Of a stretch of DNA of 64,000 bases, positions 14,734 through 50,354 are shown piece after piece. The position numbers and the translations under genes were made by a program. Below the pieces are notes generated by a model. The model was given only the letters and a program-made list of their open reading frames with translations, searched no databases and was not told where the DNA came from. Source of the DNA: Cenococcum geophilum (Eukaryota); contig CP158635.1 in assembly GCA_050273025.1 (NCBI GenBank), positions 7,936,001 to 8,000,000 of the forward strand, written 5' to 3'. How positions within the stretch are numbered: position 1 is the stretch's first letter; every line of letters begins with the position of its first letter.

Positions 14734-14932
14734 TATTAGGAATAAAGGCAAGCGCTTACCATCTAAGGCATATTGCCGTCAAGTATAGCAAGTTGCCGTT
14801 ATGTATTACCGCGGCGCTAGCGTGGCAAGGAGCCTTAAGCTCCTTACCCTCCCTTATTAAGATAGAGAGAACAATTAATTATTATACTATCTACAAACCG
14901 TAGCTACGTGATATCACCTTGTGTAACCAACA

Positions 14933-14941
14933 CTAATTAGT
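14933..14941 (+). promoter_or_regulatory. Palindromic site at the PBS position (CTAATTAGT, de-RIP CTGATCAGT); GalEa conserved hairpin site
   Basis: Lies immediately after the 5' LTR, where no TGG tRNA PBS is present. Matches my recollection of the conserved hairpin site described for fungal GalEa elements. Confidence 0.6.
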
Positions 14942-15545
14942 AGTTAACTTTACTGTTATACTACAAAACAGCTAGGTATTCTACTAAGAAGAGACGAGCT
15001 ACTATACTAGTACTACTTGTAACGGAGCCTTATAGTAGGGACTACGGTAGACTCGTTAATAGGCTAGGTATATAGGTATTGCCGGAAGTTAACAACGTAA
15101 TAATAACTGGTGGAGTGGTTGCCTAATAGATTAACTCTAATTATATTCTAAGAATTACTACAAGAAAGGAACTACCTAGGTAGGGACTAAGGGTCCTTAA
15201 ATACACAACCGTACTTCTAAGAAAGTCGTTACTCTGCCTACTCTATCTACTCTATTCGCTCTGTTATAAATCTTATAGATTATACAGATTACACAGATCA
15301 CGTTACGTAACTCTACTTACTATTCCTCGTTATATAGTTCCACGGGTTCTATTCTAGACCGTGCTTATATTAACTAACTAGCTTCTTCTAACTCCTCTCT
15401 AAGTAGTTATAATATTATACTTAAAGCGTCCGTAACACTATCTCCCTTCTCTTTATCTTTGTCCTTAAAGATACCTAGTATCTCTAAGTCGTTTACTAAA
15501 GGTATAATATCCGTCTAATTAATTTGGTTAATATTGTTACTTATA

Positions 15546-22200: not shown

Positions 22201-22581
22201 CTATATTTCCGTTAAGTAGGGTTTAAACTATTTAAGTGCCCTTCCTGATAAGAATAGTCCTGCGTAGGCTATTTAATCCATTATTATGGCTAACTTGGCC
22301 CCTTCTTATATAACTTTAAAATGCATTTACATTAGAAATCCTTTAAGCTTTAATCTCTCTCCTAAGAATCGTTTAATTAAAGGTAACTTAACCTTTGCTA
22401 CTCTGATCCCATTACGTCTTTCTTTAAGTATTTAGTTGTTCTCGTTTAACCTATTAATAATTTCCTATAACTGCCCAACCGTAACTAGTTGCGAGTCAGT
22501 ATTTTGTATACTTGTATCTCCACTTAACCTTAAAGTGGTTGCTGCCGTTAACGGCGTTATGGTAGCTGCTTTTGGTGGCAT
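16130..22581 (-). pseudogene. gag-pol polyprotein of Gypsy A copy 2
   Basis: ATG at 22581, CCHC knuckle at about 21535-21580, protease at about 19420, RT AYLDD at about 18461-18475, then RNase H, integrase and chromodomain. Many RIP stops. Confidence 0.9.
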
Positions 22582-23317
22582 ATTATTTAACTTCTTAAAA
22601 CCGTAACTAAGGTAGTAATTGTGTAACGGAGCCTTATAGTAGGGACTACGGTAGACTTGTTAACAGGCTAGGTATATAGGTATTGCCGAAAGTTAACAAC
22701 GTAATAATAACTAGTGAAGTAGTTGCCTAATAGATTAACTCTAATTGTATTCTGAGAATCACTATGAGGAAGGAACTACCTAGGTAGAGACTAAGGGTCC
22801 TTAAATACACAACCGTACTCCTAAGAAAGTCGTTACTCTGCCTACTCTGTCTGCTCTATTCGCTCTATTATAGATCTCGCAGATTACATAGATCACATAG
22901 ATTACGTCACGTAACTCTGCTTACTATTCCTCGTCACATAGTTCCACGGGTTCCATCCTAGACCGTGCTTATATTAACCAACTAGCTTCTTCCAACTCCT
23001 CTCTAAGTAGTTATAACATCGTACTTAAAGCGTCCGTAACACTACTTATGCTAGAGAAAGCTGTCTTTTAAGGTTAGAACTAGTCCTAAACCTTAAATAG
23101 AACTCTTCCACAAATCTAAGGATCTAAAGGCTAGAACTGGTCCTAAGCCTTTCTAAGATTACGGATTCTTACGTTAATTACACAGAATAACACACTTTAC
23201 AAGTCTTCGCGATTTAAGGCTAGAACTGGTCCTAAGCCCTATAATTATAAATACACATTATAAACGCGTACTAAATAATAATCCCTAAACTAATAATACT
23301 CCCCTTCCTCTAAAAAT

Positions 23318-26300
23318 ATGGCTACGCCTGCTTTAAACAACTAGGAAGACTCCTTACCACTAAGGGTAGCTATATACGCGAAATTCATTAATAAAAATTA
23401 GGATAAATTTACTATTAATATAATAACTTATACCGCAAAACAAGTTAATGGCTTTCTCCTATACTATATCCTATTCTACTAAAGTAAACACTACGCCAAT
23501 TCACAACTATAGGAATATTTTAGGGAGGATTTTGTAGGATAGACCGCCGACACTTAGGTACTTAGTAATGTTAATATTATTTAGGATTTCTAAGACTTCC
23601 TTTATAGGAATGGGGTATATATTACTAAGAATAGTAACCTAATTGCTAGTAATATTTAGGCCATTATTATTAATATAGAAGAACCAGTATAGACAGAAGC
23701 TAAGATTATACGTTAACTACGGAAACCTAAAACTAACCTATATTCTTTAGAAGGCAACTTTAATTTATATTAAAACCCCTAGAACGCTAATCCCCTACCT
23801 AGAAATACTCTCCTATTAGGAGGTACTCTCCTACCTAGAGGTGCTCTTCCGCTACCCCCTCCGCTACCTTTATCCCCTCCATTCTAGCTAACCGGTAAGC
23901 CTCTATTATAAAAAGTCACAAATCTAATAAAGGTATATTTAGACGAAGAAAAGAAGTTTAGAGGAGAACTATATAATATACTTAGAGCAAAACTATAGGT
24001 CTTCTATAACTGTTACAATAAGGTTAAAATTTAATGCCACTAGTACCACTACGCTTTCTCCATTATATTAAAGGGACAGGTAATAACATTCTATTATAAC
24101 TATATTGCGGGTAAAAACTATAGCTTTAATATAATGCTTTAGATTATTAGAGCCCACTTTAAGACTAATAAGAATCGCTAACTTTATATATCCAAATAGC
24201 GAGAGACTATATTTTAGAGAGTTATTACTTCTAACCCAATAAAGACTTAGTTAGAGTGCCTTTAACTACTCTTTAATAAACTCTAGAAAATCTAACGTAG
24301 TCTTACTAAAACTTACTAAAATAAGAACAGCCTAAGGGATTAGGTTATCTTAGCATGCTATAGCGTTCTTAAGTGTAACTTAGCGCTATATAAACCTATA
24401 AATACGTTTAAAGGAGTATATACTAAGCTACGCTCCGCTATAGGTACTGCAATATAAATATAAGAATCTTAACAGTTCTATACTAAAAACTCTACCTAAC
24501 TAAGTATTCCTAACTAACACGATTATAACTAGACTAATTAAACATATAATAGCCGTAGTAGGGAATACAAAAAAGGGTATAATTAATATTAACTATAAGG
24601 TAATTATAGAGGTCCTTATAGAGGCTTATTTTGAAGTAATTACTAAAAGAAGTACTACGTTTATAAGAAGCCAAATTACTAGTTAACTAGACACTCCCTT
24701 AATAAGCGAAAAGAGGTATATAATAAGTTCCGTTAAAGTGTAAAAAATATTAAAAATTATAAGGTTACTGCGGCCTACTTTTAAAGCTTCCTAGTTTAAT
24801 ATAAAGGCGTAAAAGATCTTAAGGGTAAGGTTAATAAGGTTAAATAGCTCCTTATAGATATAGAAATTAAAAACTACTCCCTTAACCAATACTTTACTAA
24901 GTATAGTAAGGTAGATAGCATATAAACTATCACTATTCTTAATAATTAATCTACGCTCTATTCTATTATAAAATTAAATATCTTTAATAAGCTAAAGGAG
25001 AGTTCCGCGTTTTCCTTTAACGATAGATACTTAGCGTATATCTTCTATAGTATTATACTAGATATAGAAGCTATAGGAGTATCTATAGTAGGAGAACCTT
25101 AAGTTTAAGCTCTTTAGTAGCTTAATAGCTTTATTTAAATTAACTAATTAATAGCAGGCCAATATACGATTTGCTTTAGTAAAGGTACTATAATCTCTCT
25201 TAGCACAATTAGGGTCCAAACCCCCTTAGGATACATTACTTTCTATATTATTCCTATAAACACTTTATTTCTATTTTGCATTAAAAATATAGATAAGTTA
25301 GGTATTAGGCTTAATAACCTTAAAAATATACTTATTTAGGGAGATAATTAGGTGCCCGTTATACGCAAGTAGGGTTACCCCTAGTTACTCCTTTATTAAC
25401 TAAAAAAGAGTATTACTTAAAGCCACTTAACTAAGTTAGAATTACGCTAACTACACCGTTATTTTAGCCACCTATTTATTTATTAATTGCTTAGGGTTCT
25501 TTAGTAAGTAGGCTATAAAGTTAAGGTTAAGGCAATTAAGCATCTTATAAAGTACTACTATTACTATTAAATAAACCAGAAGTTCCCTAGCCGATTTATG
25601 TTCACTCTTAAGAATAACTATAACTTTAACTTCTATATTATTATTAACGTTATATATCTTAGCGGCAAGCTAGTGCTCTAAGTTATTAACTTCTTAACCT
25701 CCTTTTAAGCCGCGCGTTTTTTAAAAGATATATTAGCTAAAAACGCATAGAATACCCTTTAGTTATACTAGATTAATATCTATTTAGAACCCCCTAATTA
25801 AATCATCTACGATATAGGAAAGAACTTCTTATTTATAGAGTTCCAACAATAGACAAAGGCAATAGCAATTAAGGTTAAGGAAGTCCCCGTTAAGGCACAT
25901 AATAGCATTAAAAAAAGTGGAGCAATATTATATACTATTATGCCACGTATATAAGATTATCTCTTTAAAACTAAAGGACGCTAGCGAAGAACTTACCTTA
26001 TAAATAGTTATTAAAGCTATTAATAATTCCGCTAGCCTAGATAAACTTATACCTATATTACTAGTCTTTAGCGCCTACCCTTAAATAACTAACAATTCTC
26101 TACTATCTCCCTCTATTATATAATAAGCCAAGGCTATTTATAGAGTAATAGAGGGGGTGTAACGTCTTTACGCTATATACTAGGTTAATAACGCACTAGA
26201 AATAAGAAATAGCCTAAATATATTAACTATACTTAATTTACCACTTTAGTCTAAAGTATATATATAGCGTAAAAAGGGAGAATAGTTAGGCCCACACTAA

Positions 26301-28230
26301 CTTATTATAATTAATAGTTAAATTTATACTATTTAGATGCCTTATAGACCCACTTAATTCCGTTTAACTGTTATTAAGCCTTACTATAAAGATAACAATT
26401 CCGAGCCTTTATAGGATGCCCTAAAAAATGCCCTAAAGGAAAACTACAATTAATGTGCTCTAGAAGGCGACTACAATCCTAATATAATTATAGTAGATAC
26501 GCTATAACCATAACGCGGTAGAGGTCGCGTAAAGGGATTATAAAATTACTAACATCTTATTAATTTTAAAGAACAATTTATTACCGCCATTAAGAATAGA
26601 GTTAAGTTATTAATAGCCTTTATAACAGCTAAGGAGAAGGCTAACTTTAAGCTTACAAAACAGCTTTAAAAAAAAAGGTTATATTATAACCCTAGGAGCT
26701 CCTTTCTAAGCATCTAATAAGTAGGAGATTAACGGTCTTATCGCAAGAGAAGTCTTTAAATTTAAGAAGTATAACCCTACTAAGTTTAATAAAGTTCGCA
26801 TCTTTAAGTTAAAGATAGTTAATAAGATTAAGGGCAAAGCTACTAATACCCCATTTAAGAAATTAAGGCTTATTATCTAAGGTTACAACAATAATGGTAA
26901 AGAGATAATCCTTATATAATCTCTTATAATTTAACGAGCTAGTTAGCAAGTTATTATTATATTAGCTCCCTCCTTAATAAAGAATAGAATAGCGGTTTAT
27001 TTATAAGATATTACTTAAGCCTACACCTAATTAGAGACGCACCTTTAGCGCTTAATATTGGCATACCTTCCGAAGCAAATTTACTACTAATATCCTAAAG
27101 ATACAATTATAGTTATGCTTAAGCCATTATATAGAATCGCAGAGGCAGAAACTTACTAGTAGGCTACCTATAGCAAGCACCATAAAGAGAAGCTTTTAAT
27201 AATTACTTTTATATTTAATCCCTACTTCCTTATTATAACCATAAAAACCCTATTTAGAATTATTAGTATATAAACTAATAATATAATTATCTTAGGAGAC
27301 AACTAATTCTTAGCTCTTAAAGAGGATAAGCTAATAAAGGTAAATCTTATAGTAAAGCTAAAGGAAAAGCTTAATTTAATAACACTATTACTTTTTAATA
27401 AATGCATCCTCTCCCTAAATAAGGATTCTATTACTTTACGCCAGAAGGGTTAAGGTAAGAAAATCAACGTTATTAACATTAATTCCCTAAAGTAAGAATA
27501 CGTAGAGCAACGCGCTTACGGAGCTTATATTGCTTCTATCTATTAACCTAAGGCTTTATTTAATCTCTCCGTTACTACCTAATACTAGAAACCAACTAAG
27601 GATAATATTCTTACCCTAAATAAATGTCTTTCCTAGCAAATAAACCATCTTAATTAGGGGCTACTCTATATACCTATTAATCTTCCTACCACTAAGCTCT
27701 TTATATTTATTAATAGATTATTTATAAATAATAAAGATTTTAGCTCCTAGTTAGGATATAAGATTATTATCGCAAATAAATTTATTAAAGAGAATAACTT
27801 TACAATCTATAGTAATCTTATTTATTAGAGCTTAACTAAGAGCAAGTGCGTTACCTAAAGTATTTTAGCGTTAGAGATATATAGAATAGTTAGCGGAGTT
27901 AATATAGTAATTACAATTAGAACTACCCTAAAGATAATTATAGATTAACTTAAACTTCCCGTTATCCCTATAATCGTATACACCGACTTATATTCCCTCT
28001 ATAAGTATTTAGTTAAGCTTGGTACTATAAAGGAGAAGCGCCTTATAATTAATATTATAGCACTTTAGCAATCCTACAAGCGTTAAAAACTCTTTAAGAT
28101 TTAATAAATTAATAGCTAAGATAACCCGGTAGATATAATAACAAAGGCGAACCCAAACAAGGCACTAGAGACGTTTATTAACATAAATACTCTACATATA
28201 TAAGTTAAAGGTTAGGTTAAAAGGGAGTTT
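23318..28230 (+). pseudogene. gag-pol polyprotein of the inner Copia
   Basis: ATG at 23318, protease PDTGA-like at about 25057-25075, integrase LHRxFxH at about 25451, RT KSRLIIQGYND at about 26860, RNase H DNPAD-like at about 28120. Confidence 0.88.
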
Positions 28231-28825
28231 TTAGAAATTTCTTAGTTATATAAGGTCTTAAAATATCTAGGAATTTTAACTAGCGGTTAAAGTTATCTAA
28301 TTAGTTAGATTCTCTTACTAAGACTTTTTTTTAGAGGGGGGAGTATAACATTTTATAGACCCTGACTTAACCTAGCTAATTAGGATTTTCCATCCCCGGA
28401 ATAAAAAATCGCTATTAACTCGCTTACCGCTAGCGCCTTAGCGGCCCTACTAATAAGATACCTACCCATAACTTATAAGCAAGAAAGCGCCACGTGCTAA
28501 AAGGCAAATTTTGGGACAGCGAGACTTATATTATAATAGCAATAGTAAGTAAGGAGGATTAATATTTATTCCGCTAGTTAAGCGGTATATATATATAAAT
28601 AGCAACTATAAAAGAAGAGTTGCTAGTATTAGGAATAAAGGCAAGCGCTTACCATCTAAGGTATATTGCCGTCACGTGTGGCAAGTTACCGTTACGTATT
28701 ACCACAGCGCTAGCATAGCAAGGAGCCTTAAGCTCCTCACCCTCCCTTATTAAGATAGAGAGAATAATCAATTATTATACTATCTACGAACCGTAGCTAC
28801 GTGATATCACCTTATATAACTAACA

Positions 28826-29799
28826 ATATTTATTAATAGATTATTTATAAATAATAAAGATTTTAGCTTCTAGTTAGAATATAAAATTATTATCACAAAT
28901 AAATCTACTAGAGAGAATAACTTTATAATTTACGGTAATCTTATCTATTAGAGCTTAACTAAAAGTAAGCGTATTATTTAAAGCGTTCTAACGCTAGAGA
29001 TATATAAAATAGTTAGTAGGGTTAATATAGTAATCGCAATTAGAACTACCTAAAAAATAATTATAAATTAACTTAAATTTCCTATTATCCCTATAATCGT
29101 ATATACCAACTTATACTCCCTCTATAAGTATTTAGTTAAGCTTAGTACTATAAAGAAGAAGCGCCTTATAATTAATATTATGGCACTTTAGTAATCCTAT
29201 AAACGGCGAGAACTCTTTAAGATTTAATAGATTAATGGCTAAGATAACCTAGTAGATATAATAATAAAGGCAAACCTAAATAAGGCTCTAGAAATATTTA
29301 TTAATATAAACACTCTATATATATAAGTTAAAGGTTAGGTTAAAAGGAAGTAGGAGTATAATAATTTGCAGACCCTAATTCCAACTAGCTAATTAGGACT
29401 TTCCATCCCTAAGATAGAAAATTGCTATTAGCTCGCTTATAACTAGCGCCTTAGCGTTTTAATAGGACGTTTACTAATAACTCTTAAGCAAGAAAGCACC
29501 ACGTGCTAAGAGGCAAATTTTAGGACAGCGAGACTTATATTATAATAGCAATAGTAAATAAGAAGAATTAATATTTATTATGCTAGTTAAGCAGTATTTA
29601 TATATAGATAGCAGCTATAAAAGAAGAGTTGCTAGTATTAGAAATAAGGCAAGTAGTTATTATATATCGCCACAGCACTAGCGTAGCAAGAAGTCTTAAG
29701 CTCCTTATCCTTTCTTATTCTAAGAAGAAGCATATTAACTAACATCACTATAACCTACTTAAGTAGTCGTTATTAATAAGTCACCCTATATAACCAATA
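28826..29799 (+). mobile_element. Outer Copia 3' end (RNase H, 3' UTR, variant 164-bp LTR 29636-29799)
   Basis: Resumes exactly where 14733 stopped. AAAAGAAGAGTTGCTAG precedes the LTR, as in the inner copy. Confidence 0.88.
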
Positions 29800-31054
29800 G
29801 ATTATAAATTAATTATAAATTCTGCTGCCCCCTAAACGCATTAAGAAACTATATTTTATATTTTTAGACGCGGAGCTTAATAGGAATAAATTGGAAATTA
29901 ATAAGTGGGATATAGAAATTAATAATTTAATAGAACATAAATATAAGAACGACCCCTAAATAGTAGATATAATAAAAGCAATTTAAATAGGGAAATGGTA
30001 ATATAAAGATATTACACTCGCTAAATATAAAATCCGTAATAATTGATTATACTATTAATAAAAGATAGTAGTCTTAAATTCCAAACCCTTAAAATTTAAG
30101 ATACTCGAATTTATATACAATTCCCCTATAGTAGGGCATCCTAGCTATATAAAGACCTATAAAATTATCCAATAAATATACTACTGGCCTATAATATATA
30201 ACTATATACGAAAATATATTTAAGCCTATAGAATATATATGCGTAGGAAGACCTCTTATATAAAGAAGTAAGGGGTACTTTAACCATTGCTAATTCTGAT
30301 ATAAAGATAGCAAGATATTTTAATTAACTTTATAGTTAACCTGCCTAACAGTAATAGGTTTATAAATGTTATAGTAGTTATTAACCGTTTTATAAAAATA
30401 TAATATATAATTCCTATAAACTTAATTAATATAATATTAGTAGCCGAAGGTTTTATTAAGTATGTCTTTAAACTATATAGACTTCCTAATTTGATAATAT
30501 CCGACTATAGAAGCTAGTTTATTTTAGACTTCTAGTAAGCCCTATATAAGCGATTAAGTATATAAATACGACTTTTAACTATATTTTATCCGGAGATAAA
30601 TAGATAAACTAAAATTGCGAATACAATTATAGAATAATACCTATAAATATACTACTCCTACCTATAAAACGACTGGGAAAAGTAGCTGCCTTTAGCTAAG
30701 TTTACTGCAAATAATACAATAAACGTATTAATAGGCGTAATGCTATTCTACGCTACCTCTAAATAAGACCCTTAACTTAGATTTAAACTATAACCTAAAA
30801 TTAATATAATAGGACCCATAATTAAACGGATTTAGTTAATTAATATATATAACTTTACTAATTAAATTAAGTAGTTAACGGAACTATTATAAAGTAAATT
30901 AACGTACGCTTAAATAGTATAGGAATAGTATACGAATAAAGGACAAGCTCCTATATAGGACTTTAAGAAAGGTAATATAGTTTACCTAAATATATAAAAC
31001 CTAAAGACTTAACGGCCCTTAAAGAAACTTAACTAGAAGTTTATAGGCCTATAC
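29800..31054 (+). mobile_element. Gypsy family D integrase remnant (outermost host)
   Basis: De-RIP HDSPxAGHPG...YYWP, integrase core and KKLxWKFIGPY. Continues at 36985. Confidence 0.85.
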
Positions 31055-34000: not shown

Positions 34001-36979
34001 CGCTAGGCTTTTTACCAAATTAGGATAAACCCTAAATTAGAAAACTTTACTCTATTTTAGACCCGTTACGGAACGTATAAATATAAAGTATTACCTTTTA
34101 AACTAACTAACGGACCGGCCATATACTAACAATATATAAATAATATACTATTTAACTACCTTAACGACTTCTATATAGCATACCTAGATAATATTATAAT
34201 CTACTTTAAAAATAAACTGGAATATAAAGAGCATATCTATAAAGTCCTATAACGGCTTTAAAAAGCTAGCCTCTAAGCCAATATTAAGAAGTTAGAGTTT
34301 AGTATTAAGCGTATAAAGTACCTAGGGTTTATTATTAGTATAAACGGGATTAAGGCAGACCTAAAAAAGACGGCTATAATTAACTAATAGGTACCCCTAA
34401 GGACCGTAAAGGGGGTATAGTTATTTATAGGGTTCTATAACTTCTACTAATGCTTTATTAAGAACTATAGCAGGATTACCGGGCTACTAAGCCTACTTAC
34501 CTATAAGGACCAGCCCTTTTATTTTAATACTGTATATAGGCAGGCCTTTAACAAGCTTAAGAAACAACTAGTCTTTACTCCCTTACTTACCTACTTTAAC
34601 CTAAAACGGCCCTTAATACTAGAAACCAATGCCTTAGATAGTATTATAGCTAGTATTTACTCCTAAAAGCAAATAGACGGAAAATGGTACCCTATTGCTT
34701 ACTATTTAAAGACTATAGTAAATGCTAAGCTAAACTACCCAATTTATAATAAATAAATGCTAGCCATTATCTCTAGCTTTTAGCACTAGCGAGCCCAACT
34801 AGAAGGCACCCCTGAGTTTATCTAGGTAGTTTCCAATTATAAGGCCTTAGAATATTTTATAACAATAAAGGCCCTTATAGCCTAATAGGCGCGCTAGGTA
34901 GACACCCTATCTTAGTTTAACTTCCTAATTATATATAGGCCAGGCGCCACTAACTGTGCGGACGCTCTTATAAGGCGTAAACAGGATATAAATAACTAGA
35001 TAGCTGTAAAGATCTTATTATAGACCTAAGTATTACTATAACTAGAGTACCTTAACTCCTAAATACGGGCAGAACTAAATATAGACTCTTTAGATACTAA
35101 GATATACCTTATTAACTCTATAGAACTAGACCTTATTAATAAACTACTATAGGTAAACCGTACGGCCCCTTCTCTATAGGAGTACCGCGAAAAGGCAAAG
35201 AACGTTTCTAGCCTATAGTCCCTTAAAAGTAGACTACTTAAGCACTGTAAATAGTTAGTGGTAGTAGAGGAACAGAACTTATAGACTTAACTTATTACCG
35301 AAATACATACCTAGGTCTTTACGGCCCACCCTAAAAAAATAAGACCTATAGGATTATTAGCAACCGCTACTACTAGCCCGGAATAATTATAGATATTAAC
35401 CGCTATATATGGAACTACAATAACTACTATAGGTTTATAATTTTACAAGATAAGACCCTAGGATTATTAAAACCCCTCCTAATACCTAACCGCCCCTAGT
35501 AATATATCTCTATAAACTTTTATAAGCTACCTCTAGACTGTAACGGATATAATATAGTTATAATCCTAGTTAACCACTTTAGTAAGCGCCTATTTTTAAT
35601 TCCCTATTATAAGAATATTAATACTAAAGTGGCCCAGCTATATATCTACTATATCTACTAAATTTACGGACTACTAAATACTATTATATCTAACCGCGGG
35701 CCGCAGTTTATATTAGCCTTTTAGAATAAGTTTACCTAGATCCTAAGCATTAAGCTAAAGCTTTCTATAGTATATTACCCCTAGATAAACGATTAAACGG
35801 AGATTATAAATTAATACTTGGACTAGAGGCTCCGGCCTTTTATTAACTACTTTTAAGATAACTGGGCTAAACTATTACCCTTAATAGACTACACCTAAGC
35901 GACCCTACCCCACAATTCTACCGGATTTGCCCCTATTTAGCTAAAAATAGGTTACCTACTCCATATAAGCTTTAACTGGGAAAGACTAGAAGGGCCCCAG
36001 ACTATACGCGAAAAACTATCTTATAAGGAAGCCTAGTAGTACGCTAAGCGCTTAGAAGAAGCCTAGAAAGTAGCCTATATAAACCTAAAAAAAGGCCTAG
36101 AAATTAATAGAATAATAAGTAAATAAGTATAAGCGCAAGCCTAACTTTACTATAGGCGATATAGTCTAGGTTATAATAAAGAACTAAAAGATAAAACGGC
36201 CTAGCTATAAGCTAGACTATAAAATAGCAGGACTGTATAAGATTCTTAATAAAGTAGGCAACTTGTATAAGGTTAAGCTCCTAGACTTAATTAAAGTTCA
36301 CCCTATCTTCTTACCGGATAAGCTACAGAAAGCTATAAATAACCTACTACCCGGACAAAAGAATAAACCTCCCCTACTAATTTAAGTTAATAGCAATAAT
36401 AAATGGGAAATTAAAGAAATACTAGCCTATAAACTTATAAAGGATATAACTTAGACCCCACTTAGTACCCTATATAGAACTTTATAGGTAGTCCCTATAA
36501 GCTTTAGGAGTTTTATAGCCGTTACCCTAATAAACCTAGACCGCCAAAGTACCTAGATAAGTAGATGGAATGCTAGTATAATAAAGACAATAAGCTACCA
36601 GAAGAATATAAGGACAAAAACGCCCCAGAAATTTCTTAGTTATATAAGGTCTTAAAATATCTAGGAACTTTAACCAGCGGTTAAAGTTATCTAATTAGTT
36701 AGATTCTCTTGCTAAGACTTTTAGCAACAAAGCCTAAGGGCAGGCTTTTTCAAAGGGGGGGGGTAATATTATAGCACTGGCAGAACTTGGCAGAACTCCG
36801 CACAGATTGCCGCATATTACGGTTACGTAACGCGAAGATTTTATAAAACACCAAACGGCGCTACTCTTCTTCTCCTTTCTTTTCCCTAGCTTTAGATTCT
36901 CGTTTATAGACAATCCAATTATATAGGCTTGCGCGTCCCTTTTACCGTATCTATACCTTAATTAACTAAGTCACTAATA
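31055..36979 (+). mobile_element. Complete Gypsy family C chromovirus
   Basis: LTRs at 31055-31271 and 36767-36979, TSD TATAC, and a G-run PPT at about 36752-36763. RT AYLDD at about 34178, RNase H ETDASD at about 34622, then integrase and chromodomain. Confidence 0.93.
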
Positions 36980-37282
36980 TATACTAAATTAAGAAGAAAC
37001 TAAGCCTATACGCTTATAAGCTTAAACTGCTAACTAAAATAAAAATATACCTAATATTTTATGTAAGCTTACTATAACCTTTAAAAGATAAACCTTTAAC
37101 TTATAAAGTGCCGCTGCTACCTTTTATAATTATTAATAACGGTAATAGTTCTTACTTTATTAACTTAATTAATAATATATAATAAAAAAATATAATCTAA
37201 ATAATTTAAACTGCTTATTAAGTGGGAAGGATATAAAATATAAACCTAGGAAACCTATAACTAGATTAAGGCTAACGCGCCT
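36980..37282 (+). mobile_element. Gypsy D integrase C-terminus and chromodomain, cut at 37282
   Basis: De-RIP AYELELP...IHPxFHVSLL, then LLIKWEGY..TWEP. It stops abruptly after ..KADAP. Confidence 0.8.
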
Positions 37283-37380
37283 CATTAGGATTTTTTTTTG
37301 GGCTAGTTGTTGCGGTTTACGGCAAATTGCTACAAACTGTACGGTTGCGGCAGGTAGATATAGTCGTTAGCGAATTATAT

Positions 37381-37740
37381 AAACCATGCGTTTTATAATA
37401 AGTTTGCAGTACTCTAATAGTAAACCATACGTTTTATAACAAGTTTATAGCATCTAATAGCAAACCGCGCGTTTTATAATAAGTTTGCAGTATCTAATAG
37501 CAAATTATAGCAAAACGCTTAACTACCAAACTAATGCTAGCTTTTTGCTACCCTATAAATAAATAGCGCGCAAACTATATAAACTATACAAACTATACAA
37601 ACTATATAAACTATATAAACTATACAAACTATATAAACTATACGAACTATATAAACTGTCTAAACTATATAAATTATAATATACTGCTACAGATTGCCAC
37701 AGATTGCCATAGATTGCTATAGATTGCTATAGATTGCTAT
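37381..37740. repeat. Subterminal tandem arrays (about 40-bp x3; AAACTATAY x about 12; AGATTGCYAY x5)
   Basis: Directly visible in the sequence. Confidence 0.9.
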
Positions 37741-37789
37741 AATATGCCTTTAAAAATATATTTATATTATAACTACTATATAAAATAGC

Positions 37790-40700
37790 TACTCCTCTAA
37801 ACCTATTACAGACTATAAAGCATTTGCCTTATCTAGCCCCTCCTCTACCCTCGTTCTAAAGATATCTAGATCCTTATTATTAAATAGTATAAACTTAACC
37901 CCTTTTCCAATAGTATACTAAAGACTTATATTGGGTTTAGCCCTAAGCGTCTTTCTAAATAGCTTAACTACAGCTATTAACTATTCGTAATTCTAGCAAT
38001 ATAGTATATTAATGGTACGTTTCTAATTCCGCGATTTTATACCTTTAAAGATAAACTTATAGGTATTATTTCCAAAATTATTACTAGCGCCACCATCCTT
38101 ATCTATATCTTCTCCACTATTCACGCCAGTATTATTGCCTATGTCCACTCCATTATATTCGTTGCCCCCCTTTCTTGTACTATTCTAATTATCTATATTT
38201 CTACCTAGAGCTATATCCGTTCTATTATCCGCATCGCTATCTTTATCTATATTAACTCCACTATATCCGTCACAACGCTTATTTATATTAGTCCCGCTAT
38301 CTATACTGCTATTAGGGTCGCTAACATTATTAGGCCTACCACCTTAGTAATTAGTACTGTGGTCGGTCTAATTAGGCGACATATTATGGGGTATATTAGG
38401 CTAAATAACAGTACTAAAAGGGCGGGAGGTGTCTAGGTTTAAGGAAAGGGACGCGTTAAGTACCTAAATATAAGTATTAGTCCAGAACTGTTATTATAAG
38501 TAGTTGTATACTGGTAAAAGTATATTAAAGCGCTACTTATTAAATCCTATGTTATAGTCGGAGTCTAGGTCAGAAAGATTATTAAGACTATATTTAAATA
38601 GATTTGGAATTACTCATATAGCAGGGTCGTTACTATGTATAGTTACTTAATATCTTTTTAAGACGCCCTATCGCAAAAGCCCTAAAATCCAGTTCTAGCG
38701 CTCTATGTCACGGAACCCGACCGCAGGGGCCTCCATAGGAGAACCCCGTGCTCTCGCGTACACCTCGCGTACAGCTTATGTCAGCTACGCGAGGGTATAT
38801 TACCTCCTTACGCCCTCGACCCTTACGATTGATTGCGCAACGTCTTGTAGACTCCCCGAATACATACGCTTTGTAGCCATTGTCCGCGTTCTATGACATT
38901 ACGTTGCGCCTTTTTCTTTACTAACGCTTAGCCTACGACTAATTCTACGTCTCTATAATACTGCAGACGCTGCTAGAAGCAGCGTGTCCATAAGTTACCT
39001 TACTTTATACTCCTAAAGAATTAATAATAGTAAGACGAAATTCCTTACTAGCTACTATATTAAACTTAAAGAATAACCTAATACCTATATCGAAACCACA
39101 ACACTAATTAGTCCCAGGAGGATTTAATTTGTTAGCCCTAGCCTTAACCCCTAAAGGGAAGCCTAGTAGCTTAAAAGACTATAATGACTATAAGGGGGAT
39201 ATTAATAATGTCTTATTCTTTATTAACTATATAACTACGGATAAATAAGCCGAAGGGCTACTACCCATTGAGATCAAGATATGAGACGCCGAGATGTTTG
39301 CTAAAATGGTAGCATGAGAACCCGATAAATACTACCGCCTTCTATAGAACTACTATCTAAAGCTTACACGAGCTAAGATGCGTACTGCCTAAGATTATAA
39401 TATTATCTAAGACCTATAAGCTTATAAGGCACTCGCTAATAATACACGCCAAGAGATTAAAGATAACCTCCGCGTGTCTAAACGCAACGTCTAACAATTA
39501 AAGAAGGCCAAGATTATACTTATTGCTACAGTTACCGAAAGAGAGGGTATAATTAAATACCTATAATCCCAGCTTAATAAGCACACTCGTAATAATACTA
39601 GATACCTCTTTACTATATATAACGCCACCTAAGTTTCTACGCCCCCAGCAACTTTACCTACTTAACGCTTAACGGAAGGTTAGCGCCGAGCAGCTTCACC
39701 TAACGGGAACCCCTACTATAGCAGCGGCGATAACGAAAGCTATAATAATTAAACCTAAACTACTACTATAGGGTCTAATACACGCTACCCTAATCCCCTA
39801 ATCTTTAAGGGTAACCGCAAGAAATACAGCTACTAGAAGATGTAAACCCGCGAAAAACTAACCTAGAGCGCCTGCCTTTTCCCCATAAAAGATACTAAGA
39901 TTGGCTACATTATTAGACGAACAAAGGGCATCCCGTTTAATAGGCTTTTCGCTTAATAGGAGATTAGCAGTCCCTAGAAGTAGTAGTCCCACTAGGAAGT
40001 CCTTAACGACCTTAACTAAATATACCGCAACTATAACCTAGTAGCTACTAGTCGAGCTAAACTACGCTCCCTAAAGATAAGTTTTACTAAATTATTCGAC
40101 GAGTTCTATGTTAAATTCCAGGAATATACTAAAGTCCTCGCCTAAGACGACGCTAAAGACTAGAAAGATCTCCTTAAAAAAATCACTTATCGCCTTAGTC
40201 ACGCAGCCGCCAGCCATAACTATAACAACGTTTATAATATGGTAGCAGCCCTACGGAAGATTAAACGACGGCTGAACCAGATTACTACTGCAAACCTTTA
40301 CCCAAAGATCTCCCTATAGAAGCCCTCCGGACCTACTAAACCACTAACGCCTACTACCCTAAGTAATACCACTGGTCCTAATATCGACCTCTCTATACTA
40401 GCCTTCCTAAAGAAGCTACTAGATAGAGAGCGCGAGCTACTCCGGAAGCTAAGGCGTTACTATAAATACCATTAAAAAGGCTATTATAGCTATAGCCCAA
40501 ACTGCCTAATAGCTAGGTTTAGCAGCTACTATTAAATACCTAACCTTATACCCGGGACACTAAATACGTTGCTACGTACCGCTACCGCATAAGACGAAAA
40601 TGTAATAATGGTAGTAGAATTAGACGCGGAAGCGGAAAACGCAAAGTCCTAGCCCTAAGTCGTAGGTTATGACACTCCGACAATAGAGGGATCTATATAT

Positions 40701-43700: not shown

Positions 43701-46700
43701 TGTCTACATCCTTTTACTATAAAACTGCGGGATAACTAGAAAACGCTAACGCTAGTATAAAGGCGTACTTACAATAGGTAGTTGCCTATAGTTAGGACAA
43801 CTGGGTAGACTATCTTTTACTAGGTAAATTTGCAGCAAATAACTACGTCTTAGCCACTATAGGACTTACCCCGTTCTTCGCGAATAAAGGATATTACCTA
43901 TAATCCGGTATAGAGCCACTAGAGCCTATTAATAAGAAACTGCTATATAGAAAACGCCTTAAGATACTACTTGCCGATTAATATATAAACCGTATAAAAG
44001 ACCTACTTAACTACTATAAAGGAGAGATAGCCTAGGCCCAAGTAAAATAAGCTTACTTCGCTAACCGCTATAGAATACCACCACCTAAGATGCGTGTTAG
44101 CGACTGGGTATAGTTAAATATATATAATATCTCCACACAGAAACCTATAAAGTCACTCGATTATAAGAACCTTAGCCCCTACTAGATTAAACAAGTTATT
44201 AATAAAAAAGCTATATACAAACTAGAGCTCCCACCTACCTTAGCTACCCGCGGGATATAGCCCGTGTTTTACCTATAGCTACTATACCTTTACTAGCCTA
44301 ACCCTCTACTAGGACAAATATAGCCTAAACCCCTACTAGTACTAATCTAAGATAAGAACGAAGACGAGAACCATAAGGAGTGGACTGTTAAACAAATCAT
44401 TAACTCTAAATACTTTAGTAAAGGCAGAGGACGGCGGCTCTACTATAAAGCTACCTATATAGGATTTAATATAGATTAGCCGGAATGGCAACAATAGGAA
44501 GATTTTAAAAATATAAAAAATCTAATTAGCGATTTCTACTACGCAAACCCATAGAAACTAGGCCTAAGCAGAGATTTCGTACCTAATCCCCTATAGGAGC
44601 CGTCATAGCTAAATCGTTGTATATTACCGTTACATAACTACTCTAATAAGATATTAAGGAACTTTAACCGCCAGTTAAAGTTATCTAATTAGTCAGATTC
44701 TAGACGCTAAGGAGAAGCTAACTAATTAGGATTTTCCATCCCCGGGATAGAAAATCGCTATTAGCTTGCTTGCTACTAGCGCCTCAGCGACACCCTCGCA
44801 CCTTACTAAGTCCCTAATAGCCTCCTTCCCCTCTATAACCCAGTACCTTCGCATAGTAGCAACCCATAAGCTTTAAGTCAGAAGCACCTATACGAGCCCG
44901 TTACACCTATAATGATATTCCTTCTTCTAGATACCCTAAGCATTTCCCCCTATATATACATAGCAACCACAGCGTCGCCGGAGCTCCGCCTTAATAGGAG
45001 GGGGGGTAGTGTTATGGAACCCGACCGCAGGGGCCTCCATAGGAGAACCCCGTGCTCTTGCATACACCTCACATACAGCTTATGTCAGCTACGCGAGGGT
45101 ATATCACCTCCTTACGCCCTCGACCCTTACGATCGATTGCGCAACGTCTTGTAGACTCCCCGAATACATACGCTTTGTAGCCATTGTCCGCGTTCCGTGA
45201 CACTCTATTAACTAATCCGCCTATATAGCCTTTATCCGTTCCTATATAGCTAATATTAGAGTTAGTTATAGCGTAGCCTAGGTAGTTAGAACGAGGGTAG
45301 AGAAAGAATAAATTACTATTAAGATTGGCACCTACTTTAAACTTTTATTAGGTAAAACTACTACTTTTCTATTTATTAATAACGTGGCGGATTATTATAT
45401 AAATTAGTATAATAGCCCTAGGGCTAATTGGGCGCAAAAAGTGCTACGTATCTATACCGAACCCAAATTGCTACCTTCCTTTAAAGAATGACTTAGAGAG
45501 ACTAACTATAATAACCGGTACTATAAAGCGGGATTACTCGCCCTATAAATAGTTAGGAGAGTACTAAGGTAGTATAGCTATGCGTACTATCTTAGAGTAT
45601 TAAAAGTCATCTATATAGAGTAGCTCTTCTACTTTAGCAATTATTTCCTACTTAGAGAGCTTTCTAAATAAGTACTTAGCCTTTACGCAATCTTGTATAC
45701 GTCTTAATAGGTAAGACTAGAACTAGCTAATACTATTATATATCTATTTTATATTAGTATATATAAAAGTAATAAAAGGTAGCTTACCATACAATATATT
45801 AATGGCGATAGTTTTTATATTGCCTCGCTAGAACTATCGCCTTTAGAAACCCTATTATACTCTACTACTTTATCCTATACTAAGTCCATTGTCTTTTCTA
45901 GAGTCTTTACGTTCCCTTCCGGCTATAGCGTAAAAGAAAGACCTTTAGGAGCCTTACCCGACATTATAAACATTAAAAAGAAGCGCATAGCAGCTTTTAA
46001 TATTAGTTTATCCGTAAGTTTTAATTTAGGTTTACTACTACGTTTTATTCCTTACTATCTTCTAACTATATATATACCGTATTAAGACTTCTACGGTTTA
46101 TTACTGCGTATAGGCGCTATATAAAACGACTTAGCTATAAAGTTATCTTCGGCACTAGAGATAAACTCTTTAGTAAAAGAACAGTAGCATTAAAGCCGCT
46201 TATTAGGGCGATTTAGGACTTATAACCGCTATTAAAGCGTAAGCGGGTGTAAAGGAATAGAGTCTATATAATAGATACTATGGTTAAATTCTGTATATAT
46301 AGATTTAGAGATTATTCGTCTAAACTCTACTAAAGTTATCGACAATGCGCTCTTCCCTAGGGCATTAAGCCTCTATCTTCTTTAGAATCGCTATTTATAT
46401 CTAACTAACGTTTTAGGATGCTATCCCTAGATACTCTATTGCTATATATAGCCGTCTGCTAAAGTTAGCTGCATACTACCATATATATACTATTTATAGT
46501 ATTTTAGCCTAACTGCCGTTCGCGTATACGTTTCTAGATTCTTCTTATACTAGCAATATTATTTCTTTTACCTTTACCTTAGTGGCAGGTATATATTAAT
46601 ATTTTAAGTAGTTATATAGAGGGTAGTCTATACCTTATTCTTTTTAGAAGCTATAGTTATATTTTTTTAGAATAGTAGAGGTTAATAAACCTTCGGCATA
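37790..46700 (-). pseudogene. Multi-exon gene of unknown function, RIP-inactivated and split by Gypsy B (38706-45202)
   Basis: Protein-like de-RIP frames lie on both sides of the insertion. There is a minus-strand GTAAGC intron donor at about 45787 and an acidic low-complexity tract at about 38100-38330. Boundaries are approximate. Confidence 0.45.
38706..45202 (+). mobile_element. Complete Gypsy family B chromovirus
   Basis: 193-bp TG..CA LTRs at 38706-38898 and 45010-45202, TSD CTCTA, PPT GGAGGGGGGGTAG. RT AYLDD at about 42014, then RNase H, integrase and a chromodomain at about 44380-44550. Confidence 0.95.
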
Positions 46701-46949
46701 ATAAATATAGAAGAAGTTAAAGAAGTTAATAAAGATATAAAGATAAAGTATAATACTTTTAAATTATATATTTACTAGTATGGATGCAGTTAATGAAATA
46801 GAGGAGTAAAGGGGGAGATTTTAATGTTTTACTAGGGAGCTTAGACCTATCACTAGCCCACTTAGGGCAAATTATGGCAGATTGCCGTATATCTTGCCGT
46901 TAGCTATGCAATATTAAGAATTCCTACTAATAAGCAAGCACTAGAGCTA

Positions 46950-50245: not shown

Positions 50246-50354
50246 ATCGTTCGAACAACCAGTCAGCAACACCACGAACGACTTAATCGATCGATCGAAT
50301 CGAACCAGAGCCTCGATATCAGCCCGCTACCGAATCAAATCGAATTAGATACCA

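What the first reader, a model, noticed from the sequence alone, without database searches (positions are those of the whole stretch)
28233..28445. Palindromic 3'-UTR modules shared by a Copia and two unrelated Gypsy families
Seen: module 1 (about 95 bp, containing AACTTTAACC-NNN-GGTTAAAGTT and ATCTAA-TTAG-TTAGAT) is near-identical in the inner Copia (28233-28327) and Gypsy C (36627-36722), and partly present in Gypsy B (about 44650-44701). Module 2 (GATTTTCCATCCC-C-GGGATRGAAAATC and flanks) is in both Copias (about 28374-28443 and 29386-29456) and in Gypsy B (about 44722-44789). Their LTRs and ORFs are otherwise unrelated. Both modules contain CTAATTAG (de-RIP CTGATCAG), the palindrome at the Copia PBS position. 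Inference: a structured cis-element (dimerisation/packaging, priming or a protein-binding site) is exchanged across superfamilies.
Basis: partly seen in the sequence, partly recalled or inferred. Interest (0 to 1): 0.75.

Follow-up and report, generated by a model that had tools for sequence, protein, structure and literature searches.

The report
Shared hairpin cassettes in retrotransposon tails
Three unrelated, mutation-scarred fungal retrotransposons carry nearly identical short hairpin-forming stretches just after their last gene, which points to swapping of non-coding control modules between element families.

Summary
Module 1 (28233-28328) matches 36627-36722 at 96.9% (E 3e-39) and partly matches 44647-44701. 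Module 2 (28369-28443, 29385-29456) matches 44715-44789 at 85-87% (E 1e-18).

No other copy exists in the window on either strand. All six copies lie in sense orientation between the pol stop codon and the polypurine tract of an LTR element.

The differences between superfamilies are almost all RIP-type transitions (C>T/G>A changes typical of repeat-induced point mutation). They are no larger than the differences between the two LTRs of a single element.

The "Copia" belongs to the fungal GalEa clade. Its palindrome at the PBS position is the published Conserved Hairpin Site motif CHSeq1 (CTAATTAGT). Module 1 carries CHSeq1 exactly, and module 2 carries its 8-nt core.

Best reading: stop-codon-to-PPT cassettes of small hairpins were exchanged between co-resident families by recombination before RIP. 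They plausibly serve RNA-RNA pairing, either 5'-3' cyclisation or dimerisation.

Function is not shown. Covariation cannot be tested with three RIP-damaged copies, single hairpins occur at chance frequency, and CTAATTAG can arise by RIP convergence. A genome-wide survey is decisive and could not be run here.

The parts
14734..14932 (+). 5' LTR of the inner Copia (GalEa clade), 199 bp; TSD ATATT at 14729-14733 and 28826-28830
   Evidence: 14734-14942 matches 28627-28835. The same 5 bases flank both LTR ends. The outer Copia resumes at 28826 exactly where it was interrupted at 14738/27712.
14933..14971 (+). Conserved Hairpin Site of the inner Copia: CHSeq1 CTAATTAGT (14933-14941), 21-nt interval, CHSeq2-like ACAAAACAG (14963-14971)
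   Evidence: Sequence. Motif definitions from PMC5445492 section 10 and supplement 3. CHSeq1 matches 9 of 9. CHSeq2 matches 8 of 9 to the listed variant ACAGAACAG, and the one difference is G>A.
28233..28328 (+). Module 1 in the inner Copia. Hairpin A 28272-28294, CHSeq1 copy 28297-28305 inside hairpin B 28295-28310. Its first 12 nt extend the Copia ORF in frame to a TAG at 28243-28245.
   Evidence: ORF end from tblastn with a Copia polyprotein relative, aligned to residue 1125 of 1126 at 28224.
28325..28343 (+). T8 run followed by a purine run (AGAGGGGGGAG), resembling the T-run plus PPT of Gypsy C. It lies at the right edge of the segment that the outer Copia lacks.
   Evidence: alignment of inner Copia against Gypsy C and against outer Copia.
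28356..28443 (+). Module 2 in the inner Copia: CTAATTAG 28376-28383; imperfect 13+13 palindrome 28384-28410
28611..28825 (+). True PPT (AAAAGAAGAG, 28611-28620) and 3' LTR (28627-28825) of the inner Copia
   Evidence: The PPT resembles the putative PPT AAAAGAAGAGAC listed for the GalEa family Chaglo1.
29369..29456 (+). Module 2 in the outer Copia. Module 1 is absent here; the ORF stop TAG is at 29351-29353.
36627..36763 (+). Gypsy C 3' cassette: module 1 (36627-36722), hairpin C (36709-36727), hairpin D (36729-36748), T-run, PPT AAAGGGGGGGGG (36752-36763). The 3' LTR follows from 36764.
   Evidence: (fold z -2.29, 4 of 200 shuffles as good).
39100..39143 (+). Gypsy B leader segment that is the best pairing partner of Gypsy B's module 2 region. 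It also holds a CTAATTAGT that is probably a RIP artefact.
44629..44789 (+). Gypsy B modules 1 (44629-44712) and 2 (44701-44789), contiguous. CTAATTAGT at 44685-44693 and its exact complement ACTAATTAG at 44721-44729, 27 nt apart. Palindrome 44730-44756. The true PPT and LTR start at about 44997 and 45010.
   Evidence: (fold z -3.38, 1 of 200). The polyprotein alignment ends at 44557.

Best explanation
The modules are non-coding 3'-terminal cassettes of LTR retrotransposons. Each is a run of two to four short hairpins lying between the pol stop codon and the plus-strand primer (polypurine tract, PPT).

They occur in a GalEa-clade Copia and in two chromovirus-type Gypsy families living in the same genome. 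They were moved between those families as units by recombination, before RIP (repeat-induced point mutation) inactivated the copies. The most likely route is reverse-transcriptase template switching between RNAs, with junctions at purine or T runs and in hairpin loops. Patch repair between DNA copies is the alternative.

The likely role (inferred) is RNA-RNA pairing. Both modules carry the 8-nt palindrome that forms the core of the GalEa Conserved Hairpin Site at the primer-binding position. They could therefore pair the 3' UTR with the 5' leader, as the CYC5:CYC3 cyclisation sequences do in the yeast element Ty1, or pair two genomic RNAs. Pairing between RNAs of different families would itself favour co-packaging and further exchange.

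Shown: the sharing, the position and orientation, RIP-only divergence, and the identity of the motif. Inferred: the exchange mechanism and any function.
For: 1. Significant, exclusive sharing. E-values are 3e-39 and 1e-18, and there are no other copies in 64 kb on either strand.

2. Position. Six of 6 copies are in sense orientation, between the ORF end and the PPT. The Copia ORF ends at 28224 (inner) and 29347 (outer), and the Gypsy B polyprotein alignment ends at 44557.

3. Divergence:
- Module 1, Copia vs Gypsy C: 3 transitions and 0 transversions in 96.
- Module 2, Copia vs Gypsy B: 9 transitions and 1 transversion in 75.
- Module 2, between the two Copia copies: 10 and 1 in 74.
- LTR pairs of single elements: 5-12% transitions and 0-1.5% transversions.

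4. Module 1 is present in one Copia copy and absent from the other. The inserted segment runs from the last sense codon to a T-run plus G-run that resembles the T-run plus PPT of Gypsy C. It brings its own in-frame stop codon.

5. The Copia meets the GalEa definition, and CHSeq1 follows its 5' LTR. Module 1 carries CTAATTAGT in 3 of 3 copies, and module 2 carries CTAATTAG in 3 of 3. The window holds 13 other CTAATTAG sites in 64 kb, so both about 90-nt modules holding one by chance is roughly 4e-4 (my estimate).

6. In Gypsy B, CTAATTAGT and its exact complement lie 27 nt apart and pair in the minimum-free-energy fold.

7. The least RIP-damaged copies fold unusually well. Gypsy B has z -3.38 and Gypsy C has z -2.29. 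Of 100 evenly spaced control windows, 0 reached -3.38 and 5 reached -2.29.

8. 5'-3' complementarity:
- Copia leader 14928-14960 pairs with module 1 at -21.6 kcal/mol. That is the best locus within its own 5.8-kb RNA (the next locus is -17.1) and the third-best locus of 12,769 plus-strand windows.
- The best partner of Gypsy B's module 2 core among 2075 windows of its own RNA is its leader at 39105-39137 (-24.6; mean -8.9, sd 2.9; next locus -19.4).
- The longer Gypsy B duplex scores -29.5, reached by 3 of 500 shuffles.

9. Precedent:
- GalEa 'extended CHS' stretches are shared between distant families within a species (PMC5445492, section 10 read).
- Non-coding regulatory sequences are exchanged between pararetrovirus genera by recombination (PMC5491270, passages read).
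Against: 1. There is no covariation evidence. Each module has only 3 copies, and nearly all differences are RIP transitions. These degrade the stems rather than compensate.

2. The Copia copies fold like shuffles: z -0.78, -0.60 and -0.51.

3. Single perfect hairpins are not enriched. Stems of 9 or more number 14 observed against 10.4 +/- 3.2 in shuffles. Stems of 10 or more number 5 against 2.9 +/- 1.9. Saturating RIP also preserves palindromes without any selection.

4. CTAATTAG is a common RIP end-product: 19 sites against 9.5 expected. The CTAATTAGT in Gypsy B's leader reads CCAATTAAT in the other Gypsy B copy. That instance therefore arose by RIP from a different ancestor, and the same could be true inside the modules.

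5. Gypsy C shows no outstanding 5' partner for module 1. A cruder leader-module test gave 4 of 200 for Gypsy C and 30-120 of 200 for the other five pairs.

6. With module 1 as the query, one internal Copia site (-23.1) beats the leader (-21.6).

7. The outer Copia lacks module 1, so that module is dispensable if the outer copy arose by transposition.

8. All carriers lie within 17 kb of each other. A local DNA-level event therefore cannot be excluded for module 1.
Confidence: 0.5

Rival explanations
1. Neutral recombination debris. The 3' UTR is the one place where an LTR element tolerates foreign sequence. Patches copied from other elements by template switching therefore accumulate there and are inherited, with no function of their own. 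The hairpins matter only as pause sites for reverse transcriptase.
For: Module 1 is dispensable within the Copia family, being present in one copy and absent in the other. There is no covariation. The Copia copies do not fold better than shuffles. Junctions lie at T and purine runs and in a hairpin loop.
Against: Both independent modules carry the CHS core palindrome. The Gypsy B and Gypsy C copies fold in the top 1-5% of the window. Leader-module complementarity ranks first within the element's own RNA in 2 of the 3 element families tested.
Confidence: 0.25
2. A small autonomous-looking hitch-hiker, a foldback or MITE-like palindromic element of about 100-160 bp. It inserted independently into master copies of the three families and was then amplified along with them.
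For: Module 1 as a whole is an imperfect 96-bp foldback. It behaves as a clean insertion or deletion between two Copia copies.
Against: No free-standing copy exists in 64 kb of almost pure repeat DNA. No target-site duplication or clear terminal inverted repeat lies at the block edges. All six copies are in one orientation and one compartment of their hosts, which is not expected for DNA-transposon insertion. The block edges differ between hosts.
Confidence: 0.1
3. A local, post-integration DNA repair event. Module 1 was copied into this particular Copia copy from the Gypsy C element 8.4 kb downstream, by templated patch repair or short-tract conversion. On this view the sharing is a property of this locus and not of the families.
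For: All carriers lie within 17 kb of each other. The neighbouring outer Copia lacks module 1. Copia module 1 differs from the Gypsy C copy only by 3 RIP-type changes.
Against: Module 2 is in both Copia copies, which were separate insertions, so at least that sharing predates integration. Gypsy B's module 1 differs by transversions and indels, so it is not a local copy. The insert sits exactly between the last codon and the stop codon and keeps the reading frame closed, which suggests a copy that still had to function.
Confidence: 0.1
4. DNA-level protein-binding sites. On this view the near-perfect palindromes with 1-4 nt spacers are binding sites for dimeric host transcription factors. They would be comparable to the palindromic repeated motifs of plant Sireviruses, and were co-opted repeatedly as enhancers.
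For: Very short spacers are more typical of dimeric protein sites than of RNA hairpins. Module 2 has a CCCGGG centre. Sirevirus palindromic boxes with a CGG-CCG core are proposed regulators (PMC2829016, abstract and passages read).
Against: The modules lie upstream of the 3' LTR and not in U3, so they are not duplicated into the 5' promoter. They are single-copy per element, not arrays. Strict sense orientation is not needed for palindromic DNA sites.
Confidence: 0.05

Closest known systems
[quoted passage not shown] 2017, PMC5445492)
   Same: The host Copia has it: CTAATTAGT directly after the 5' LTR and a CHSeq2-like 9-mer 21 nt downstream. Module 1 contains the same 9-mer, and module 2 contains its 8-nt palindromic core. 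In Gypsy B the 9-mer and its complement lie 27 nt apart, inside the 2-41 nt interval range tabulated for CHS. The paper also reports 'extended CHS' stretches shared between distant families of one species.
   Different: The modules are in the 3' UTR, not at the PBS position. They lack the conserved A/A mismatch. They also occur in Gypsy elements. The word UTR does not occur in the main text of that paper.
Ty1 CYC5:CYC3 cyclisation sequences and the 5'-3' bipartite PBS of Ty3 (reviewed in PMC4974528)
   Same: A short sequence next to the primer site at the 5' end pairs with a sequence in the 3' UTR of the same genomic RNA. Here the Copia leader pairs with module 1, and the Gypsy B leader pairs with the module 2 region.
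   Different: In Ty1 the pairing was proved with compensatory mutants, whereas here it is only predicted. No tRNA bridge is implied. Gypsy C shows no such partner.
Sirevirus (plant Copia) conserved non-coding motifs (PMC2829016, PMC4728375)
   Same: More than one purine tract lies upstream of the 3' LTR. Palindromes able to form hairpins occur in non-coding regions and are conserved among otherwise divergent elements.
   Different: Sirevirus palindromes are multi-copy CGG-CCG boxes inside the LTR or before env, within one genus. Here they are single-copy 3'-UTR modules, near-identical across superfamilies, in a fungus.
Exchange of non-coding regulatory sequences between pararetrovirus genera (PMC5491270) and template-switch chimeras of LTR elements (PMC1950507, seen only in a search listing)
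   Same: Region-specific recombination homogenises non-coding cis-regions between otherwise unrelated reverse-transcribing elements in one host.
   Different: Those cases involve autonomous and non-autonomous partners or members of one superfamily. Copia-Gypsy sharing of a 3'-UTR cassette was not found in my searches.

Membership tests
Fungal GalEa-clade Copia (host element of the finding) | Copia-type polyprotein (RVT_2 reverse transcriptase at the C-terminal end, integrase upstream) | tested here: met
   Pfam fails on the RIP-damaged frames themselves (0 real hits in 12 translations). phmmer finds 1616 relatives. Five of 5 tested carry RVT_2 at E<=1e-5, 3 of the 5 above the cut-off. tblastn maps residues 21-1125 of one relative colinearly on 24938-28224.
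Fungal GalEa-clade Copia (host element of the finding) | LTRs of 138-311 bp bordered by TGT...CA; 5-bp target duplication; element about 6.1 kb | tested here: met
   The LTRs are 199 bp and end in CA. They start with TAT, which is TGT after one RIP change, so that letter is inferred. The TSD is ATATT. The length is about 6.07 kb once the nested Gypsy A is removed (definitions).
Fungal GalEa-clade Copia (host element of the finding) | No tRNA PBS; CHSeq1 (CTGATCAGT or CTAATTAGT) directly after the 5' LTR and CHSeq2 a few to 41 nt downstream | tested here: met
   CTAATTAGT lies at 14933-14941, 9 of 9. ACAAAACAG lies 21 nt downstream, 8 of 9 to the listed variant ACAGAACAG, and the difference is G>A.
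Fungal GalEa-clade Copia (host element of the finding) | Protein motifs DITQAY, QTDD, CQPEA, ADxxTK | tested here: met
   They read as DITXAY, XTNN, YXPKA and VDIITK in the read-through translation. Every difference is a RIP-type codon change. Motifs are from supplement 4 of PMC5445492. The comparison was made by eye.
GalEa Conserved Hairpin Site (are the modules themselves CHS copies?) | Located immediately after the 5' LTR | tested here: not met
   All six module copies are in 3' UTRs.
GalEa Conserved Hairpin Site (are the modules themselves CHS copies?) | CHSeq1 9-mer paired with CHSeq2 carrying a conserved A/A mismatch | tested here: not met
   The CHSeq1 9-mer is present in module 1 (3 of 3 copies). 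The partner in Gypsy B is a perfect complement with no A/A mismatch. In the inner Copia it is about 70 nt away with a terminal G-U pair. In Gypsy C there is none.
Ty1-type cyclisation (CYC5:CYC3-like) sequences | Direct complementarity between a leader sequence near the primer site and the 3' UTR | tested here: inconclusive
   The complementarity is present and ranks first within the element's own RNA for the inner Copia (leader as query) and for Gypsy B. It is absent for Gypsy C. With module 1 as query, one internal Copia site scores better.
Ty1-type cyclisation (CYC5:CYC3-like) sequences | Pairing proved by disruptive and compensatory mutations | not testable with these tools
   This needs an active element and a retrotransposition assay.
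MITE / foldback element | Terminal inverted repeats, own target-site duplication, solitary copies | tested here: not met
   No duplication at the block edges. There are 0 solitary copies in the window. The rest of the genome could not be searched.
Any curated RNA family (Rfam 15) or tRNA-derived element | Covariance-model or tRNA match | tested here: not met
   There are 0 matches at gathering score in the whole window. The 2 sub-threshold matches in 28000-45300 both lie outside the modules. ARAGORN found 0 tRNAs.

The most novel reading that the evidence does not exclude
The modules are a transferable cyclisation or priming cassette for PBS-less retrotransposons. The 3'-UTR copy of the CHS palindrome pairs with the CHS at the 5' end, or with a second RNA. 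This pairing helps to start or transfer minus-strand synthesis in GalEa elements, whose primer is still unknown. Gypsy families that captured the cassette can pair with GalEa RNA, get co-packaged and recombine. The result would be a cross-superfamily network of cooperation or parasitism that spreads the cassette further.
Probability: 0.12. Interest if true: 0.85.

Novelty: new variant of a known kind. Interest (0 to 1): 0.5.

Why it matters
Fungal GalEa Copia elements have no tRNA primer-binding site, and the authors who described their hairpin site wrote that no known priming model fits it (PMC5445492, discussion read). A second copy of the same palindrome in the 3' UTR, with flanks complementary to the leader, would give that open question a concrete and testable handle: 5'-3' pairing or dimerisation.

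Near-identical non-coding cassettes in Copia and Gypsy elements would also show that cis-acting modules, not only proteins or LTRs, move between retrotransposon superfamilies within one genome. That bears on how families are classified. It also bears on how RIP-degraded repeat regions are annotated, because short shared modules can falsely link families.

Tried and rejected
1. Homology beyond module 2. Copia 28444-28626 against Gypsy B 44790-45009 scored 52 (2 of 300 shuffles reached it). That is below the window-wide 95th percentile of 61, so it was dropped.

2. Copia 3'-UTR block against the Gypsy C LTR, and most LTR-LTR pairs: not above shuffles.

3. Rfam and tRNA searches: nothing in the modules.

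4. Pfam directly on the Copia frames: nothing real. A phmmer search plus Pfam on the hits replaced it.

5. Long-sequence duplex folding of leaders against modules was uninformative: 4 of 200 for Gypsy C module 1, and 30-120 of 200 for the other five pairs.

6. The 13-nt identity AACACTAATTAGT between the Copia U5/CHSeq1 and the Gypsy B leader was rejected as homology. The second Gypsy B copy reads AACGCCAATTAAT there, so it is RIP convergence.

7. Enrichment of perfect hairpins: not significant.

8. Other strong 'partners' of the Copia leader (55976-56040, 47316) rest on G-U-rich pairing and not on sequence complementarity.

9. Two scans of the prokaryote genome collection with the module cores found nothing, as expected.

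10. A six-frame Pfam scan of 45203-64000 failed on output size and was not repeated, so that third of the window is unannotated.

11. Covariation statistics were not attempted, because three copies differing only by RIP transitions carry no signal.
Full report
**Setting**

The window is AT-rich repeat DNA (GC 0.27-0.40 in 2-kb windows). It is built of nested LTR retrotransposons whose copies differ almost only by C>T/G>A transitions, the signature of repeat-induced point mutation (RIP). It holds no tRNA gene and no Rfam family at gathering score.

**Architecture around the finding**

- Self-comparison and the sequence itself show an inner Copia at 14734-28825. It has 199-bp LTRs (14734-14932 and 28627-28825) and a 5-bp duplication ATATT.
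- The inner Copia is inserted in an outer Copia of the same family. The outer copy is interrupted after 14738 and resumes at 28826.
- A minus-strand Gypsy ('A', 15018-23044) is nested in the inner Copia.
- Downstream lie Gypsy C (about 31041-37000) and Gypsy B (38706-45202), both on the plus strand. Both have RT, RNase H and integrase-SH3 domains.
- The RT region of Gypsy B has fungal Ty3/Gypsy polyproteins as relatives.

**Observation**

The matches are listed below.

| Module | Copy A | Copy B | Length | Identity | E-value |
|---|---|---|---|---|---|
| 1 | 28233-28328 (inner Copia) | 36627-36722 (Gypsy C) | 96 bp | 96.9% | 2.8e-39 |
| 1 (core) | 28259-28313 and 36653-36707 | 44647-44701 (Gypsy B) | 55 bp | 83.6% and 87.3% | not recorded |
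| 2 | 28369-28443 (inner Copia) | 44715-44789 (Gypsy B) | 75 bp | 86.7% | 1.2e-18 |
| 2 | 29385-29456 (outer Copia) | 44718-44789 (Gypsy B) | 72 bp | 84.7% | not recorded |

- A transition-tolerant alignment extends module 1 in Gypsy B to about 44629-44712. It extends module 2 leftwards to 28356/44701.
- A window-wide scan with the same scoring, on both strands, finds no other copy.
- Apparent homology beyond module 2 did not exceed the window background and was dropped.

**Where the modules sit**

- tblastn with a full-length Copia relative aligns to residue 1125 of 1126 at 28224 (inner) and at 29347 (outer). A Gypsy relative aligns to 44557 in Gypsy B.
- All six module copies therefore lie between the end of pol and the polypurine tract, in sense orientation.
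- In Gypsy C, module 1 is followed by two more hairpins, a T-run and the PPT AAAGGGGGGGGG at the LTR edge.
- In Gypsy B, modules 1 and 2 are contiguous and are separated from the true PPT by about 210 bp.
- In the Copia, module 2 lies about 170 bp upstream of the true PPT AAAAGAAGAG.

**Module 1 is an indel within one family**

- The outer Copia reads last codon, TAG stop, then the shared 3' UTR.
- The inner Copia has about 100-110 extra bases exactly between the last sense codon and that TAG.
- The insert starts with 12 bases that close the ORF in frame (E-I-S-stop). It ends with T8 plus a G-rich purine run that resembles Gypsy C's T-run plus PPT. A 25-27-bp hairpin between two CTTTT repeats is missing relative to Gypsy C.
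- The moved unit therefore looks like a whole 'stop codon to PPT' cassette. Whether the inner copy gained it or the outer copy lost it cannot be decided from two copies.

**Age of the sharing**

| Comparison | Transitions | Transversions | Aligned |
|---|---|---|---|
| Module 1, inner Copia vs Gypsy C | 3 | 0 | 96 |
| Module 2, inner Copia vs Gypsy B | 9 | 1 | 75 |
| Module 2, inner vs outer Copia | 10 | 1 | 74 |
| Module 1 core, Gypsy B vs the other two copies | 5-7 | 2 | 55 |
| LTR pairs of single elements (identical at integration) | 5-12% | 0-1.5% | n/a |

- The modules were therefore essentially identical in the different superfamilies before RIP.
- Module 1 of Gypsy B is older: it also has indels in its 5' part.
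- A caveat applies. Saturating RIP drives different copies to the same TpA state, so low divergence in a TpA-rich block overstates recency.

**Structure**

- Each module is a series of short hairpins.
- The least mutated copies fold unusually well. Gypsy B 44645-44792 has z -3.38 (1 of 200 shuffles as good). Gypsy C 36620-36765 has z -2.29 (4 of 200).
- Of 100 evenly spaced 148-nt control windows, 0 reached -3.38 and 5 reached -2.29.
- The Copia copies fold like shuffles (z -0.78, -0.60, -0.51).
- Single perfect hairpins are not enriched in the window: 14 against 10.4 +/- 3.2 for stems of 9 or more, and 5 against 2.9 +/- 1.9 for stems of 10 or more.
- The differences between copies are RIP changes that create G-U pairs or mismatches. 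There is not one compensatory pair.
- Structure is therefore plausible but unproven.

**Identity of the Copia and of its palindrome**

- Pfam sees nothing in the damaged frames.
- phmmer finds 1616 relatives. Five of 5 tested full-length ones carry RVT_2, 3 of the 5 above the cut-off.
- Donnart et al. 2017 (PMC5445492; section 10, discussion passages and supplements 3 and 4 read) define the fungal GalEa clade by these features:
  - LTRs of 138-311 bp bordered by TGT...CA.
  - A 5-bp duplication and a length of about 6.1 kb.
  - Motifs DITQAY, QTDD, CQPEA and ADxxTK.
  - No tRNA PBS.
  - A Conserved Hairpin Site: CHSeq1 (CTGATCAGT, or CTAATTAGT in low-GC families) right after the 5' LTR, and CHSeq2 a few to 41 nt downstream.
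- The inner Copia fits these features:
  - 199-bp LTRs, TSD ATATT and about 6.07 kb without the nested Gypsy.
  - Motifs read DITXAY, XTNN, YXPKA and VDIITK.
  - CTAATTAGT lies at 14933-14941 and ACAAAACAG lies 21 nt later.
The authors call its role unknown.

**Link between CHS and the modules**

- Module 1 carries CTAATTAGT in 3 of 3 copies. Module 2 carries CTAATTAG in 3 of 3.
- The 8-mer occurs 19 times in the window against 9.5 +/- 3.1 expected. Six of the 19 are in the modules. The 9-mer occurs 15 times on both strands against 5.7 +/- 2.7.
- Using the 13 non-module sites as background, I estimate the chance that both modules hold one at about 4e-4.
- In Gypsy B the 9-mer and its exact complement are 27 nt apart and pair in the predicted fold. 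There is no A/A mismatch, so this is CHS-like but not a CHS.

**5'-3' pairing**

- With the Copia leader 14928-14960 as query, module 1 is the best partner within the Copia's own RNA: -21.6 kcal/mol against -17.1 for the next locus, over 1912 windows.
- Module 1 is also the third-best locus among 12,769 plus-strand windows. The two better loci rest on G-U-rich pairing.
- With module 1 as query, one internal Copia site (-23.1) beats the leader.
- In Gypsy B the module 2 core finds its best partner, of 2075 windows, in the leader at 39105-39137 (-24.6; mean -8.9, sd 2.9; next locus -19.4).
- The longer Gypsy B duplex scores -29.5, reached by 3 of 500 shuffles.
- Gypsy C shows nothing comparable.
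[quoted passage not shown] Here it is a prediction from damaged copies after several exploratory tests.

**A warning from RIP**

- Gypsy B's leader contains AACACTAATTAGT, identical over 13 nt to the Copia U5 end plus CHSeq1.
- The second Gypsy B copy (539-2790, minus strand) reads AACGCCAATTAAT at that place.
- The ancestor was therefore CCAATT(A/G)G-like, and the identity is RIP convergence.
- The same could hold for the motif inside the modules, although all six copies show the same state. That includes lightly mutated Gypsy B, whose LTR pair differs by only 5%.

**Interpretation**

- The best-supported account is modular exchange of a 3' non-coding cassette between co-resident retrotransposon families, before RIP.
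- A possible role is RNA-RNA pairing tied to the GalEa hairpin-site palindrome.
- Exchange of non-coding cis-regions is known between pararetrovirus genera (PMC5491270, passages read). It is also known among GalEa families for the 'extended CHS' (PMC5445492).
- Palindromes and multiple purine tracts upstream of the 3' LTR are known in plant Sireviruses (PMC2829016 abstract and passages; PMC4728375 abstract).

**Literature searches**

- I found no report of Copia-Gypsy sharing of a 3'-UTR module, nor of a CHS palindrome in a 3' UTR. This rests on searches.
- In search 81 the phrase 'Conserved Hairpin Site' was shown for only 2 of the 15 listed papers. The total of 64,902 matches counts the unrelated word-start 'galea', so the count of 2 is not exhaustive.
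- 'UTR' occurs 0 times in the main text of PMC5445492.
- The library lacks most subscription journals, so this absence is weak evidence.

**Rivals**

- Neutral recombination debris.
- A foldback or MITE-like hitch-hiker. No solitary copy, duplication or terminal repeat was seen.
- A local repair patch from the neighbouring Gypsy C. This is possible for module 1 only.
- DNA sites for dimeric proteins.

None can be excluded without the rest of the genome, which no tool here could search.

Noticed in passing
10096-13257: Part of the outer Copia (10096-11798) is the reverse complement of 24524-26228. It sits next to a reversed 1.45-kb Gypsy A fragment. The block is bounded by Gypsy A LTR copies in opposite orientation (9665-10093 and 12829-13257), as expected for an inversion by LTR-LTR recombination.
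   Followed up: partly
30107-31054: A Gypsy C-related integrase fragment abuts the 5' LTR of Gypsy C. It is colinear with 35301-36238 and lacks the last roughly 525 bp of the internal region, including module 1. No continuation was found after the 3' LTR.
   Followed up: partly
39100-39112 and 2320-2440 (minus strand): The 13-mer AACACTAATTAGT is identical in the Copia U5/CHSeq1 and in the Gypsy B leader. The other Gypsy B copy reads AACGCCAATTAAT, which shows that RIP can create CTAATTAG from a different ancestor.
   Followed up: yes
28233-28245 and 36631-36642: The first 12 nt of module 1 (GAA ATT TCT TAG) close the inner Copia ORF in frame. In Gypsy C they lie in the frame that is most open over the preceding ~35 codons, so the cassette may bring its own stop codon.
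   Followed up: partly
52379-52649 (minus strand): A diverged sequence resembles the Copia LTR plus leader (RIP-aware score 93.5). No Copia coding similarity was detected nearby.
   Followed up: partly
28680, 31083; 9348, 9369, 15303, 36823; 28491, 28673, 29500: Short motifs are shared between LTRs or UTRs of different families. GGCAAGTTACC occurs in the Copia LTR and the Gypsy C 5' LTR. TTACGTAA occurs in the Gypsy A and Gypsy C LTRs. CACGTG occurs in the Copia 3' UTR and LTR. These may be promoter motifs.
   Followed up: no
49647-50274, 50417-50548, 57941-58908, 37381-37678: Tandem arrays: a GC-rich 20-nt unit (about 30 copies), an AGGC-type 12/20/32-nt array, 75-78-nt repeats, and 40-nt and 9-nt arrays just downstream of Gypsy C.
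   Followed up: no
54095-56370 and 61326-63596: Two copies (75.6% identical) of an unclassified repeat. The right-hand third of the window was not annotated because the six-frame Pfam call failed on output size.
   Followed up: no
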